In this document: positions 15,270 through 27,200 of the stretch, piece by piece
How positions within the stretch are numbered: the stretch's first letter is position 1
How the letters are laid out: the number at the start of each line of letters is the position of its first letter
Assembly: GCF_046119375.1 (NCBI RefSeq)
Contig: NW_027362767.1
Coordinates: forward strand, 238,452,001 to 238,516,000
Direction of reading: 5' to 3'
Source: Phyllobates terribilis
Taxonomy: Eukaryota
DNA length: 64,000 nt
Position numbers: made by a program

Positions 15270-18200
15270 TGACATCTTACCGAACCTCTTCTCTCTCAGC
15301 CGTCTGCGTGGATGGAACCTTTCACAAATACGTCTTCACGCCGGAAGGGAACTGTAACCGCGAGGCCTTCGACGTATATTTGGACATCTGCGATGATGAC
15401 ATTTTTTAAGCTGCTCATTAAGTGAGCTGAAGAAGAAGGGGTCAGCACGGATACCCGGAGGGGCCGCCCCAGTGTATAGGCTCTATGGGAGGCGAATGCT
15501 GCGCTTATACAGTATTATTGTACATAGGTTGTAAGTTATTGTATGTAACCTCAGTGATTCAGATAAAATTATTGTAATAAATATACGTAGCACTAAGGAT
15601 AGAGGAGTCTTATCTGCCTCTAACATTACACTATCACCAGTAATCACAGCTCTTAAAGAGGTATTCTATTTATTACATAGTCATTCCCATATTCATAAAG
15701 GGACAGTTCTTGTAAATGCAAGCAATCTACTGCTTATTAAAATGTTCATCTGTCCTTGAAATATTATCTCCTTTTGTACACAGTTCATTGCCTTGGAGAC
15801 CGACCACCGCTGTTAGAAAGCAAAACGTGAGAAGTGCTTACAAGCTTTTTTTCTATTGAGCTTGGAAGCGCTGTTTAAGCTGCCCAGGATCACTGGAGCG
15901 CGCTTTTACCTCCTAATCCCGGCCATCGTCAGCACAGTACTTACAAGCTAGACAGCAGTGTTGGTCGATCTCCTAGGTATCAGTGGTGGTCGGTCTTCTA
16001 GGCAAACAAAAGAAAAGTTTTAATATCTCAAAAACGGCTGCAAATTTTAACCAGCGGTAAACGGTTTTCTATTTTCAATATCTGCATAAAGATTTGAATA
16101 TCCCTTTAAGTTTGTTTCTTCTGTAGGCTTTGGGAGGGTAAATATAACAGCTATACTCGTCCACTGCTGTTGGTCTTTTTTGATGTCATGACTACACCGC
16201 ACGTGACCGCTGCAGCCAATAGCTAATTTTCTTGTTTTTTTTTTTTTTTACAAGCTAAACCTATAAATGCCCTTTACTGCTTGAAGCCTTGGTACAAATG
16301 GTCAGAGGTCGGACGCCAATGTCCTAGTTCAGTTTGCCCCAGATAATTATCTACCCTTCCTCCATGTAACAGCATGTACCCTTCTTTGCAGTGTTGATCT
16401 CCATCCATTGTTCATGTTCTTATCACTAATCGCATAGCACCAGGGCTAGTGACAGGAGGGAGGCCACCGTCTTGCTGCTTAGATTTAGGGGTGTCACTGC
16501 TGTTCTGAGAGTCCCATAGACTTTAAACTGGGCAGCAGCACATGTGCTCGTCCACTGCTGCCTGCATAATTTGGCTCATTGCTCCCCTGTAGTGTCAGCA
16601 CCTGTAATATTACTGACTGCAAAAGAGTCTCAGGCCAGCACATACTAGAGAAAGTGCAAACAGAGACATGTCCATCTTGAGACTGTAGAGGAGTCTCAGG
16701 ATGGTGCTCACTGACGGTGGGAATATGTGAGCTGTCGGAACAGATACGGCTCTGACTCTTGAGAAATGTAGTCTAGAGGCACAGAGGGAGAGCTGGCAGG
16801 AAGCTCAGGATGTAAACAATAGACCACTGAGAGGGTTGCAGGGGGATAAATGGAGGATAAAAAAGGAAAATAAAAGGTAGCGGGAGTTTGGAACTCATTA
16901 CAGTGACAGTCTTTTTCTTTGTGCCTAGAAAACTCATTTAATTCATTTTTAGAACCAGACTTAAAATCATAGGTTTGTCATGAGGATGCAGGTTTAGTAC
17001 CTGTAACTTTTATCACTGATAACTCAAGACTATAGCAAGTGAGCAAAATGATTCGCAAGACCCTGGTCCAGCGGCCATGGCAGTACTGTATGGCAACTAT
17101 AGTAGGGAACTGAGAAATTGCTGACATTCTCAGCCCTTCTTCTGATCAGTAGGCCCTTACCTATTATGATGTGCGCCATGACATAGAGAGGCCTGCTAAT
17201 CAGAAGAACTGGTGAGGATGTCGGCAGGTAGTAGGAAGTTTACTGTGCTCGGGACCCTGCTTCAGAGATCCATAGGAGACTACTCCCATCTTTCCAAACT
17301 ACACAGCTGTTCCCTGTCACTTGCTACTGTAGGCCAAATCTCTGGAAACTTCCATGGACCGCTAATGCAGGGATTGGCCGCAGGTCTCCTAACCGGAGCA
17401 TGACCGCTTCATGTGTTTCTATGAGGTAGTCACGCACGGGTCAGTCTGTGCATTGCGGATTCGAGTTTTGCATGAACGTCTGCATGAGCCCTTAGGGTTT
17501 TCCATTACGATGTGGAGCAAACCTACTAGAAAAGGGAAAAAAAAACACTACAGGCAAAGGGAGGAGCACGAGAAAGGAACTCTTTTTGAATCCCAGTGTA
17601 ATGCTCCGACCCCTTACTTTAGACCCAGCCTCATATCGTGCATCACTTTCCTCCGGAGCGCCCCTTTCAGGTCTAATTACAGTAAGCCGGGTGTTATCTA
17701 GTGTCTGTAAGACATTTATTTTGTATAAAATCATTGCTCAGGCATATAAAGCATTATGGTCCCAGTCCAGTGTGCAGGAGTTACCTATCTAGCAGCAGAA
17801 TGGAAAGTCTTTTCTCTACAGCGGATTAGGAGGAGTCGGGCTGCGCAGGTCCGAATCTGTCCATCGTCTGCACCACAAGGGAGAGATGCTCCAGAAAAGA
17901 GCTGACGGACACTCGGAGGATACGGGCCTCATCTGCTGTCCAATGTCTGCAGGAATAAAACAGGAGGGGTCAGTCTGTAATAGACAAATATGTGTATATA
18001 TATATATATATATATAATATATATGTCAGAACGTGAGACAGAATGGCATCCCCTCTGGTGCCCACCATAGCTGGATTCTTCGGTTAAAAAAAAATAAAGA
18101 ATTTAATAAAAATAGCTAATAAGCATATTCAGTACTGCCTTGTCCGAAAAAGTCCAATCTATGGTCATATAAAATTATTTAACCCATTAAACATAAGAAA

Positions 18201-24200: not shown

Positions 24201-27200
24201 TATCAGAGACCAACAGCTGACCTCTGCGTCCCAGCGCAGCGGCATATGACGTCACTGCCATGTGCAGATGTCAGCTGCTGGCCTCTGATAGGCCGGTGGC
24301 TGACACTGGTATTGCTGTGCAGAGAGCCGGTCTCTACGCGGCAATACACTGGACTACAGCGCTGATGTCGGCGGCTGCTGGAGAGAGCCGCGATCGTTAC
24401 GGGGTCTGTGCCTGCGGACCACAGGTGCAGAAAGGACGCCGAGGGAACGGAGGACAGGTGAGAATCTCTTTTTTTTTCCTGTCATGTGAAATACAGCACA
24501 CAGGACCTGTGCTCAGTATGGGGGGGGGCACTGTGCGCAGTATGGGGGGACAGGGACCCTGACCGCAGTATGGGGGACGGGGACCCTGCCCGCAGTATGG
24601 GGGAACGGGGACCGCAGTATGGGGGGACGGGGACCCTGACCGCAGTATGGGGGGACGGGGACCCTGACCGCAGTATGGGGGGACCATGTCTGTAATATGG
24701 GGGACCATGTCTGCAATATGGGAGACCATGTCTGCAATATGGGGGACCTGGATGGGGGACCATGTCTGCAATATGGGGGACCTGGATGGGGGACCATGTC
24801 TGTAATATGGGAGACCATGTCTGCAATATGGGGGACCTGGATGGGGGACCATGTCTGCAATATGGGGGACCTGGATGGGAGACCATGTCTGCAATGTGGG
24901 GGACCTGGATGGGAGACCATGTCTGCAATGTGGGGGACCTGGATGGGAGACCATGTCTGCAATGTGGGGGACCTGGATGGGAGACCATGTCTGCAATGTG
25001 GGGGACCTGGATGGGAGACCATGTCTGCAATATGGGGGACCTGGATGGGAGACCATGTCTGCATATGGGGGACCTGGATGGGAGACCATGTCTGCAATAT
25101 GGGGGACCTGGATGGGAGACCATGTCTGCAGTATGGGGGACCATGTCTGCAGGATGGGAGACCATGTCTGCAGGATGGGGGACCATGTCTGCAGGATGGG
25201 GGACCATGTCTGCAGGATGGGGGACCTGGATGGGTGACCATGTCTGCAGTATGGGGGACCTGGATGGGAGACCATGTCTGCAGGATGGGTGACCATGTCT
25301 GCAGTATGGGGGACCTGGAGGGGAGACCATGTCTGCAGTATGGGGGACCTGGAGGGGAGACCATGTCTGCAGTATGGGGGACCTGGAGGGGAGACCATGT
25401 CTGCAGTATGGGGGACCTGGAGGGGAGACCATGTCTGCAGTATGGGGGACCTGGAGGGGAGACCATGTCTGCAGTATGGGCGACCTGGAGGGGAAACCAT
25501 GTCTGCAGTATGGGGGACCTGGAGGGGAGACCATGTCTGCAGTATGGGGGACCTGGAGGGGAGACCATGTCTGCAGTATGGGGGACCTGGAGGGGAGACC
25601 ATGTCTGCAATATGGGGGACCTGGAGGGGAGACCATGTCTGCAATATGGGGGACCTGGAGGGGAGACCATGTCTGCAAGATGAGGACCAGTTCAAAAGGT
25701 GTATAGAAAATAAAATGGTATCACTAAAAATGTCACTTTGTCATGCAAATAATCCAGCCCCCCAAATTAAATGTTTTTCCGTGTGCGGCCCATATGCCCA
25801 GCTGAGTTTGAGACCCCTGGATTAGAGGGAGCAGTGCTCTACAGCTGTTCTTAAACTACAACTCCCAGCATGCCCACACTATCATTGGCAGTCGGGCATG
25901 CTGGGAGTCAGTCTCGTAACAGCCGGCAGAACATTGTTACACAAAGCATCCGTACAAATGGGAATTACCCTTTCAGCAATTGTCCCCCAGGTCTGGCTGA
26001 CCAGGACATGCTGTACAATAACCTGCATGCAGTTCACTTGCACCCCAGGGGTTCGTACCCGACAAGGCGAGGGGTCCGGCGTCAAGAAAAAGTCTAAACC
26101 TAGGACGTGATGTGAATGATGCCCTATATATAGCAGTAAAAACAGGAGCAGTTACTATAGCAACCAGACTCCTGCTCTCATCTCTCTAGGATTCTTAGCA
26201 AAATTAAAGCAGCCACCTGATATGTGCAGTACACAGCCAATCAATTTCTCCCGCTTGCATACATTTTTGCAACCAAACAAATGTCCCTCCCTTCACTCTA
26301 GAATATAAAGGTCTAATACACCAGATGAGACACCACAAGCAGAGCCCCTAATACTGTAATATCGCCCCTCATTCTCCACACCACGTAGAAGGATACAACT
26401 GCAGCGCGCCCGCCGCCATCTTACGTTCTGGCAAGAGGATGTACAATAGAGAAGGCGCGAGCAGTACAGAGCGACATCTGCCTCCAGTCAGTGGAGGACT
26501 TCTTGCTGGTATTTTACAAGGATTAGTCTGCCGCCATCTGCTGGTGGCTGATGAAAGTGCATCTAAAAGATAACGTTATGGAAGTGCTCCCGTGCCAGGG
26601 TTATAATAAAAATGATGAAAGGAAAACATGGTCAATTCAATTACTTTGTCGTCATTTTGGATGTGTCAATAAGGAATTAGTCTACTTAGGAGGTGGGTCT
26701 GACTTCACAGAGTGAACCCCCATTTATTTAGTGACATTCATGGGTGAGAGATAGGACTGAGGAGCCATAAGGGGTGGTGAGCGCCAATAGTTTCATGGGG
26801 TTTGTGGTAGGGAAATCATGGAACAATGATGACAAGCTAGTAGAGGATCTTCTTGGTGGGGGGCACTGAACAGTCTAGGTGGGCTGCAGGTGGTCTATAG
26901 TGTTACCTGTGGAAAGATGTGAGGTGATCAATGGGAGTTAGAAACCATGGGTAGGAGTTAGATATGACAGGTGGTAGAAAGTTTCCACAGTGGGTATATA
27001 GGTGTCACAGGAGGTAGATAGGTGACACAGGAGGTAGATAGGTGTCACAGGAGGTAGGTGACACAGGAGGTAGATAGGTGTCACAGGAGGTAGATAGGTG
27101 TCACAGGAGGTAGATAGGTGACACAGGAGGTAGATAGGTGACACAGGAGGTAGATAGGTGTCACAGGAGGTAGATAGGTGACACAGGAGGTAGATAGGTG

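What the first reader, a model, noticed from the sequence alone, without database searches (positions are those of the whole stretch)
17826..26419. Hidden LAGE3/Pcc1 (KEOPS t6A tRNA-modification subunit) gene missed by the ORF track
A complete 90-aa gene can be assembled on the minus strand from a 23-nt first coding exon, a 129-nt exon and a 121-nt exon, with in-phase junctions, a YY1/CTCF-bearing promoter and a polyA signal. It sits tail-to-tail with WDR45 and head-to-head with RIBC1. Micro-exon plus minor-intron architecture makes it easy for annotation pipelines to miss or truncate. The protein is the minimal Pcc1 fold, lacking the long Gly/Ala-rich N-terminal extension of human LAGE3.
Basis: partly seen in the sequence, partly recalled or inferred. 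Interest (0 to 1): 0.68.

Follow-up and report, generated by a model that had tools for sequence, protein, structure and literature searches.

The report
Ordinary LAGE3/Pcc1 gene, three exons
This is a real but ordinary gene: the LAGE3/Pcc1 subunit of the KEOPS tRNA-modification complex of a non-human vertebrate, hard to spot only because its three coding exons are very short.

Summary
On the minus strand there is an ATG exon of 23 nt (26419-26397), an exon of 129 nt (18793-18665) and an exon of 121 nt (17946-17826). The junctions are in phase, and AATAAA follows 106 nt after the stop.

Exons 2 and 3 were searched separately. Each alone passes the Pfam Pcc1 cut-off (43.2 and 36.6 bits against 20.9), and together they cover profile positions 4-44 and 47-75 of 75. 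Each has human LAGE3 (6gwj_B) as best solved relative, at residues 65-104 and 108-140, colinear and without a gap.

Intron 1 (7603 nt) looks like a U12-type minor intron. It has an exact /GTATCCTT donor, a branch-site-like motif 10 nt before the exon and a weak pyrimidine tract. Mouse Lage3 is already described as a minor-intron gene.

WDR45 (WIPI4) lies tail-to-tail. A RIB43A-family gene lies divergently, 4.9 kb away. HSD17B10 follows it.

The window is not human. The joined 90-aa protein was never assembled, searched or folded. Exon 1 and both junctions rest on sequence signals only, with no RNA evidence. Verdict: a known gene of a known kind, of low interest.

The parts
26397..26419 (-). 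Coding part of exon 1: ATG plus 20 nt, giving 7 codons and 2 nt of a split Phe codon. The transcription start upstream is undefined.
   Evidence: Sequence read. Translation MAAGALQ. A at -3 and G at +4; the in-frame stop is 53 codons upstream with no in-frame ATG between.
26412..26422 (-). YY1-like motif spanning the start codon
   Evidence: Exact match to an 11-mer consensus (recalled). In the window there are 5 matches at up to 1 mismatch, against 0.94 expected; 0 of 100 shuffles reached 5.
26531..26544 (-). CTCF-like motif about 115 nt upstream of the ATG
   Evidence: The only match in the window to a degenerate 14-mer (recalled). 0.04 expected; 4 of 100 shuffles had one.
26389..26396 (-). 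5' splice site of intron 1, U12-type (/GTATCCTT)
   Evidence: One of only 2 exact matches in the window on both strands. It sits in the phase that exon 2 needs.
18794..26396 (-). Intron 1, 7603 nt, probably a U12-type GT-AG intron. It holds a LINE reverse-transcriptase fragment (22938-23900, minus strand), minisatellites (24522-25682) and a 393-bp tandem repeat (19870-20710).
   Evidence: Length; repeats; RVT_1 E 1.2e-10.
18804..18811 (-). Branch-site-like motif TCCATAAC, ending 10 nt before exon 2
   Evidence: One mismatch to the recalled U12 branch consensus. Only 27 of 8562 AG sites in the window have such a motif 6-14 nt upstream. The pyrimidine fraction before this acceptor is 0.65, against 0.85 for intron 2.
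18665..18793 (-). Exon 2, 129 nt: 1 nt of a split codon, 42 codons, then 2 nt. It encodes the N-terminal half of the Pcc1 domain.
   Evidence: P0001. Pfam Pcc1 43.2 bits, profile positions 4-44. Human LAGE3 residues 65-104, E 1.2e-07, 22 of 40 identical. The frame closes 5 codons upstream and holds no Met.
17947..18664 (-). Intron 2, 718 nt, an ordinary U2-type intron (/GTAAGT ... pyrimidine tract ... CAG|)
17826..17946 (-). Exon 3 coding part, 121 nt: 1 nt, 39 codons and the TAA stop. It encodes the C-terminal half of the Pcc1 domain.
   Evidence: P0002. Pfam Pcc1 36.6 bits, profile positions 47-75 of 75. Human LAGE3 residues 108-140, E 2.2e-08, 20 of 33 identical.
17715..17720 (-). Polyadenylation signal AATAAA, 106 nt after the stop

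Best explanation
This is the LAGE3 (Pcc1) gene of a non-human vertebrate. It is a small housekeeping gene with three coding exons on the minus strand.

Its product would be a protein of about 90 aa that is little more than the Pcc1 domain. By homology, that domain docks onto the N-terminal lobe of the catalytic subunit OSGEP/Kae1 in the KEOPS complex, touches the anticodon arm of the tRNA and offers the surface for GON7. In this way it supports formation of t6A at position 37 of ANN-decoding tRNAs.

The first intron (7.6 kb) is most likely removed by the minor (U12-dependent) spliceosome, as reported for mouse Lage3. The second intron is an ordinary U2-type intron.

Shown here: the reading frames, the splice, start and polyA signals, and the family assignment of exons 2 and 3.

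Inferred: use of exon 1 and of both junctions, expression, the fold, KEOPS assembly and activity.
For: Family assignment:
- Each of the two larger exons alone passes the Pfam Pcc1 gathering score. Together they tile profile positions 4-44 and 47-75 of 75.
- Both have human LAGE3 (6gwj_B) as best solved relative, at residues 65-104 and 108-140. The spacing leaves exactly three residues between them: exon-2 residue 42, the split codon and exon-3 residue 1. Weaker matches are plant At5g53043 (E 0.0018) and yeast PCC1 (E 0.47, above the usual significance level).

Conserved disease-site residues:
- The split codon GT|A reads Val where human has V106.
- Phe aligns with human F137.
- These are the two Galloway-Mowat missense sites, described as hydrophobic core and OSGEP contact (passages).

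Gene structure:
- Exon 2 cannot start a protein. Its frame closes 5 codons upstream and holds no Met.
- The proposed exon 1 has a good start context, a YY1-like motif over the ATG and a CTCF-like motif upstream.

Minor-intron signals:
- Intron 1 has an exact U12-type donor, 1 of 2 in the window.
- It has a branch-like motif at a distance seen at only 27 of 8562 AG sites, and a weak pyrimidine tract.
- A passage of bioRxiv 10.1101/2021.03.05.434172 calls mouse Lage3 a minor-intron-containing gene.

Other:
- There is no second Pcc1-like stretch in the window.
- Function of LAGE3 in KEOPS comes from passages of bioRxiv 10.64898/2026.03.03.709218 and PMC9654439.
Against: - No transcript evidence of any kind was available, so exon 1 and both junctions are predictions.
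- The 8-mer GTATCCTT is not enriched in the window as such: 2 found against 1.73 expected.
- The branch motif has one mismatch to a consensus that I recalled rather than took from a tool.
- The same ATG offers another in-phase donor 15 nt further on (/GTGTGG after 38 nt). On my rough U2 donor matrix it scores 5.24, against -2.04 for the U12-type site. A protein 5 residues longer is therefore possible.
- 703 ATG-to-GT combinations of the right phase exist between 18794 and 31000.
- The mouse paper does not say which Lage3 intron is the minor one in the passage seen.
- The fold and the full-length protein were not tested, because the joined step was left out.
Confidence: 0.85

Rival explanations
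1. It is the same gene with the same ATG, but intron 1 is a conventional U2-type intron. It would use the donor /GTGTGG after 38 coding nt (exon 1 = 26419-26382) and give a protein 5 residues longer. The GTATCCTT would then be a coincidence inside exon 1.
For: That donor is in the same phase. It scores 5.24 on my approximate U2 donor matrix, similar to the accepted exon-2 donor at 5.52. The 8-mer alone is not rarer than chance in the window.
Against: The acceptor has a weak pyrimidine tract (0.65 against 0.85 for intron 2) and a U12-like branch motif at the proper distance, a pairing found at 0.3% of AG sites. Mouse Lage3 is listed as a minor-intron gene.
Confidence: 0.1
2. Exons 2 and 3 belong to a LAGE3 gene whose first exon lies elsewhere. 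It could be one of the other in-phase ATG...GT candidates inside or beyond the 7.6-kb interval. The ATG at 26419 would then belong to another transcript, for example an upstream exon of the divergent RIB43A-family gene's promoter region.
For: There are 703 in-phase candidates. Several have better U2 donor scores, for example 22510-22383 at 7.37. No RNA data were available.
Against: The better-scoring candidates lie in minisatellite sequence (30469-31199) or beside the LINE fragment (22938-23900). None was examined for a start context or promoter motifs. Only the candidate at 26419 was shown to have a start context, a YY1-like motif over the ATG, a U12 donor and a matching U12-like acceptor.
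Confidence: 0.04
3. The locus is a silent or decaying copy (pseudogene), and the working LAGE3 gene lies elsewhere in the genome.
For: Only this 64-kb window could be examined. Expression is untested.
Against: Both domain exons are open, colinear with the whole Pcc1 profile and keep the two residues known to matter in human LAGE3. The introns are retained with intact signals, so it is not a retrocopy.
Confidence: 0.03

Closest known systems
Human LAGE3, the EKC/KEOPS complex subunit (PDB 6gwj chain B, 9fl9)
   Same: It is the best solved relative of both domain exons. 42 of 73 aligned residues are identical (22 of 40 and 20 of 33), and the alignment is colinear across the exon junction. The V106 and F137 equivalents are kept. 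The stretch aligned to the human 82-93 loop, which the authors place near the anticodon loop, is present as exon-2 residues 19-30.
   Different: The human chain is 143 aa, and its Pcc1 part starts near residue 65. The model here has only 9 residues before that point and no upstream extension. Human LAGE3 lies at Xq28 (passage). Here the gene sits between WDR45 and a RIB43A-family gene followed by HSD17B10.
Mouse Lage3, described as a minor-intron-containing gene
   Same: Intron 1 here carries U12-type donor and branch signals. The mouse gene is called a minor-intron-containing gene, and was the one such gene down-regulated in the Rnu11 conditional knock-out pallium (passage).
   Different: The passage does not say which mouse intron is the minor one. 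No mouse sequence was compared, and the relevant supplements are closed.
Pcc1 of yeast (4wx8) and plant At5g53043 (8k20_D); archaeal Pcc1
   Same: They share the Pfam family PF09341 and a similarly small size. The solved chains are 94 and 102 aa, against about 90 here.
   Different: Similarity is much weaker (E 0.47 and 0.0018 for exon 3). Archaeal Pcc1 dimerises or pairs with Pcc2, whereas GON7 takes that surface in human and yeast (passages).

Membership tests
Pcc1 / LAGE3 (Pfam PF09341) | Sequence match to the Pcc1 profile above the curated cut-off | tested here: met
   Exon 2 alone scores 43.2 bits and exon 3 alone 36.6 bits; the cut-off is 20.9.
Pcc1 / LAGE3 (Pfam PF09341) | Colinear coverage of the whole domain | tested here: met
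   Profile positions 4-44 and 47-75 of 75. Human residues 65-104 and 108-140, with the three residues between them accounted for.
Pcc1 / LAGE3 (Pfam PF09341) | Closer to vertebrate LAGE3 than to other Pcc1 proteins | tested here: met
   Human LAGE3 scores E 1.2e-07 and 2.2e-08. Next for exon 3 are plant At5g53043 at 0.0018 and yeast PCC1 at 0.47. The test covers solved structures only. The large protein sets were closed.
Pcc1 / LAGE3 (Pfam PF09341) | Residues of the hydrophobic core and OSGEP contact (human V106, F137) | tested here: met
   Phe is aligned to F137. The split codon GT|A gives Val at the position of V106. The roles of these residues come from passages.
Pcc1 / LAGE3 (Pfam PF09341) | KH-like fold: a three-stranded sheet flanked by helices | not tested
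This needs the joined protein.
Pcc1 / LAGE3 (Pfam PF09341) | Assembly with OSGEP and GON7, and support of t6A formation | not testable with these tools
   This needs biochemistry or genetics in the species.
U12-type (minor) intron | 5' splice site /RTATCCTT | tested here: met
   Exact /GTATCCTT at 26396-26389. The consensus was recalled.
U12-type (minor) intron | Branch site TCCTTRAY about 10-15 nt from the 3' splice site, without a strong pyrimidine tract | tested here: met
   TCCATAAC has one mismatch and ends 10 nt before the exon. 27 of 8562 AG sites in the window have such a motif. The pyrimidine fraction is 0.65, against 0.85 at intron 2. The consensus was recalled.
U12-type (minor) intron | The orthologous intron is U12-type in other vertebrates | tested here: inconclusive
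   Mouse Lage3 is called a minor-intron-containing gene, but the passage does not name the intron. No sequences were compared.
U12-type (minor) intron | Removal depends on U11/U12 and U4atac/U6atac | not testable with these tools
   This needs RNA data or a knock-down.

The most novel reading that the evidence does not exclude
The unusual build of this gene may be an ancient, conserved feature of vertebrate LAGE3: a 23-nt coding first exon followed directly by a U12-type intron. If so, the supply of one KEOPS subunit, and through it t6A modification of tRNA, would depend on the minor spliceosome.

That would offer a mechanistic link between two groups of microcephaly disorders: minor-spliceosome defects and Galloway-Mowat syndrome. 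It fits the report that Lage3 was the one minor-intron gene down-regulated in the Rnu11 knock-out mouse pallium.

My four literature searches pairing LAGE3 with 'minor intron', 'U12', 'minor spliceosome' and 'RNU4ATAC' found only that one preprint making any connection.
Probability: 0.15. Interest if true: 0.5.

Novelty: already known. Interest (0 to 1): 0.12.

Why it matters
It matters little beyond correct annotation. LAGE3 is a known, conserved KEOPS subunit. Its loss causes Galloway-Mowat syndrome in humans.

The locus is a useful reminder that a gene made of exons under 50 codons, with a 7-codon first exon and a probable minor intron, is invisible to ORF-based tracks. Such a gene needs profile searches exon by exon.

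If the U12 first intron is conserved from this species to mouse, the gene would be a clean test case for how minor splicing controls a tRNA-modification complex.

Tried and rejected
I used single stop-free ORFs instead.
- A search for other first exons gave 703 in-phase candidates. The better U2 scores fall in minisatellite sequence or beside the LINE fragment. I did not examine those candidates for a start context or promoter motifs, and rejected them on their location alone.
- A longer N-terminus by upstream extension is rejected. There is no in-frame ATG before the stop at 26578 and no Gly/Ala-rich reading.
- A second Pcc1 copy in the window: none found (tblastn of the two exon peptides against the window).
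- Structured RNA in the window: 0 Rfam matches at gathering score.
- The long ORFs in 24397-25825 on both strands are minisatellite read-through, not genes.
- The LAGE3 case report (PMC10601869), the eBioMedicine paper and the Genome Biology paper held nothing on gene structure.
- The search LAGE3 + ZRSR2 gave one irrelevant review.

Left out:
- The spliced 90-aa protein was not assembled, searched, folded or co-folded.
- Supplementary lists of minor-intron genes could not be read.
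Full report
**What is there**

On the minus strand the sequence shows an ATG at 26419 in the context A at -3 and G at +4. Twenty-three coding nucleotides follow, and then /GTATCCTTC.

About 7.6 kb downstream, the stretch ...TCCATAACcacagtacag| precedes a 129-nt open segment (18793-18665) that ends at /GTAAGT. After 718 nt, a pyrimidine-rich CAG| acceptor precedes a 121-nt segment (17946-17826) that ends in TAA. AATAAA lies 106 nt further on.

The exon lengths of 23, 129 and 121 nt add up to 273 nt, which is 90 codons plus the stop. 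The two split codons read TT|C (Phe) and GT|A (Val).

**What the exons encode**

The 90-aa protein was never assembled, searched or folded.

- Exon 2 (42 full codons) alone hits Pfam Pcc1 (PF09341) at 43.2 bits, E 5.6e-11, profile positions 4-44.
- Exon 3 (39 codons) alone hits the same family at 36.6 bits, E 6.2e-09, positions 47-75 of 75. The curated cut-off is 20.9 bits.
- Against the solved structures, both exons have human LAGE3 (6gwj_B, 143 aa) as best match. Exon 2 aligns to residues 65-104 (E 1.2e-07, 22 of 40 identical). Exon 3 aligns to residues 108-140 (E 2.2e-08, 20 of 33 identical).

The three human residues between the two alignments are matched one for one by exon-2 residue 42, the split codon and exon-3 residue 1. 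The junction therefore introduces no gap.

The split codon gives Val at the place of human V106, and a Phe aligns with F137. These are the two Galloway-Mowat missense positions of LAGE3, described as hydrophobic core and OSGEP contact in passages of bioRxiv 10.64898/2026.03.03.709218 and in a table of PMC9654439.

Weaker matches of exon 3 are plant At5g53043 (E 0.0018) and yeast PCC1 (E 0.47, above the usual significance level). There is no second Pcc1-like stretch in the window.

**Exon 1 and the first intron**

Exon 2 cannot begin the protein. Its frame closes five codons upstream and holds no Met. A scan of 18794-31000 on the minus strand found 703 ATG-to-GT combinations in the needed phase, so phase alone proves nothing.

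What singles out 26419 is a set of signals together:
- The start context.
- An exact YY1-like 11-mer over the ATG. The window has 5 matches at up to 1 mismatch against 0.94 expected.
- The window's only CTCF-like 14-mer, about 115 nt upstream, against 0.04 expected.
- A donor identical to the U12-type consensus, one of 2 such 8-mers in 128 kb of both strands.
- An acceptor with a U12-like branch motif ending 10 nt before the exon. This configuration occurs at 27 of 8562 AG sites. The pyrimidine tract there is weak, 0.65 against 0.85 at intron 2.

The consensus strings are recalled, not taken from a tool.

Independent support comes from a passage of bioRxiv 10.1101/2021.03.05.434172, which names mouse Lage3 as a minor-intron-containing gene, the one such gene down-regulated in the Rnu11 knock-out pallium. 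The passage does not say which intron.

Results against this reading:
- The 8-mer by itself is not enriched: 2 found against 1.73 expected.
- The same ATG offers an in-phase /GTGTGG donor 15 nt further on. It scores better on my rough U2 matrix, 5.24 against -2.04. That donor would add five residues.

No RNA data were available, so all junctions remain predictions.

**N-terminus**

Only nine residues precede the position aligned with human residue 65. The in-frame stretch upstream of the ATG runs 52 codons to a stop at 26578, without an ATG and without any Gly/Ala-rich reading.

**Surroundings**

- **WDR45.** A PROPPIN gene lies on the plus strand upstream. Its tested exon is far closer to WIPI4 (2.2e-30) than to WIPI3 (1.5e-14), so it is WDR45. 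Its last coding exon ends at 15409. Plus-strand polyA signals lie at 15576, 15736 and 16869. The two genes are thus tail-to-tail and probably do not overlap.
- **RIB43A-family gene.** It runs divergently on the plus strand. All 4 of 4 exon ORFs hit PF05914, and its first coding ATG lies near 31349. The exon tested scores better against RIBC2 chains (7.1e-26) than against RIBC1 chains (best 8.4e-18). The name RIBC1 rests on the next gene being HSD17B10 (1u7t, 2.4e-29) and on recalled human gene order.
- **The gap between them.** The 4.9 kb between the two ATGs is largely minisatellite (26967-29274 and 30469-31199). A shared promoter is not shown.
- **Intron 1.** It holds a LINE reverse-transcriptase fragment in the gene's orientation (22938-23900, RVT_1 E 1.2e-10), minisatellites (24522-25682) and a 393-bp tandem repeat. 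The long ORFs there are repeat read-through.
- **RNA families.** Rfam found nothing in the window.

**Is it human?**

I take the window for non-human. The domain is 42 of 73 identical to human LAGE3. The long human N-terminus is absent. The gene's neighbours differ from the human Xq28 setting (human location from a passage). The sequence is dense in minisatellites and Tc1-like (DDE_3) transposase remains. I did not try to identify the organism.

**How it most likely works**

By homology with human, yeast and archaeal KEOPS (passages), the small Pcc1-domain protein would:
- pack its helices against the N-terminal lobe of OSGEP/Kae1;
- contact the tRNA backbone near the anticodon stem-loop, through the stretch aligned to the human 82-93 loop, which is exon-2 residues 19-30 here;
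- present a sheet edge to GON7.

In this way it would support t6A37 formation. All of this is inference from family membership. Nothing about fold, binding or activity was tested.

**Why the ORF track missed it**

Both domain exons sit in stop-to-stop frames of 47 aa without a start codon. The first coding exon has 7 codons. None of the 5 ORFs in the default listing for 17700-18850 lies at the exons' coordinates. This is the ordinary fate of short eukaryotic exons and is not a peculiarity.

**Verdict**

The thing itself is a known housekeeping gene with a known kind of intron, so novelty is 'already known' and interest is low.

The boldest reading still open is that the micro-exon plus U12-intron build is conserved across vertebrates and ties KEOPS output to the minor spliceosome. 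The literature searches pairing LAGE3 with minor-splicing terms found only the one preprint making a connection.

**Unchecked**

- Transcript evidence.
- The assembly's own annotation.
- Supplementary lists of minor-intron genes, which were closed.
- Everything that needs the joined protein.

Noticed in passing
window 1-8403: The first 8.4 kb are one 50-bp satellite of about 168 copies with 87% matches. It has a strong strand bias (GC skew about -0.37) and ends just before the WDR45 gene.
   Followed up: no
window 26967-29274, 37193-39598, 62277-64000 and others: The window is unusually dense in long minisatellite arrays with periods of 20-36 bp and up to 83 copies. Tandem Repeats Finder gave 32 rows at score 100 or more, and overlapping rows can describe the same array. 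Several arrays create long spurious ORFs on both strands.
   Followed up: partly
window 54386-54396 (+), within ORF 54242-54601: There is a second exact copy of the YY1-like 11-mer over an ATG (reading ...KMAAVSG...), on the plus strand and next to a 69-bp duplicated CpG-rich unit (54646-54781). It may be the first exon of another gene. The ORF has no Pfam match.
   Followed up: partly
window 58241-58498 (+): An ORF has a short collagen-like Gly-X-Y stretch. The Pfam Collagen match is E 0.00074, 19.7 bits, below the cut-off of 27.2. It is possibly an exon of a collectin- or ficolin-like gene.
   Followed up: no
window 60755-61826 (+); 10240-10614 (-); 51688-52446 (+): These are remains of Tc1/mariner-like transposases. 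DDE_3 scores E 1.3e-12 for 60973-61695. The others were judged only by reading the translations.
   Followed up: partly
window 31634-32155 (+): This exon of the RIB43A-family neighbour scores better against RIBC2 chains than against RIBC1 chains of the solved axoneme structures, although the gene lies beside HSD17B10. Either mammalian RIBC1 has diverged fast, or the orthology needs a tree.
   Followed up: partly
window 8877-8887 (+): A one-mismatch copy of the YY1-like motif lies at the 5' end of WDR45, just after the ORF that holds its first coding exon.
   Followed up: no
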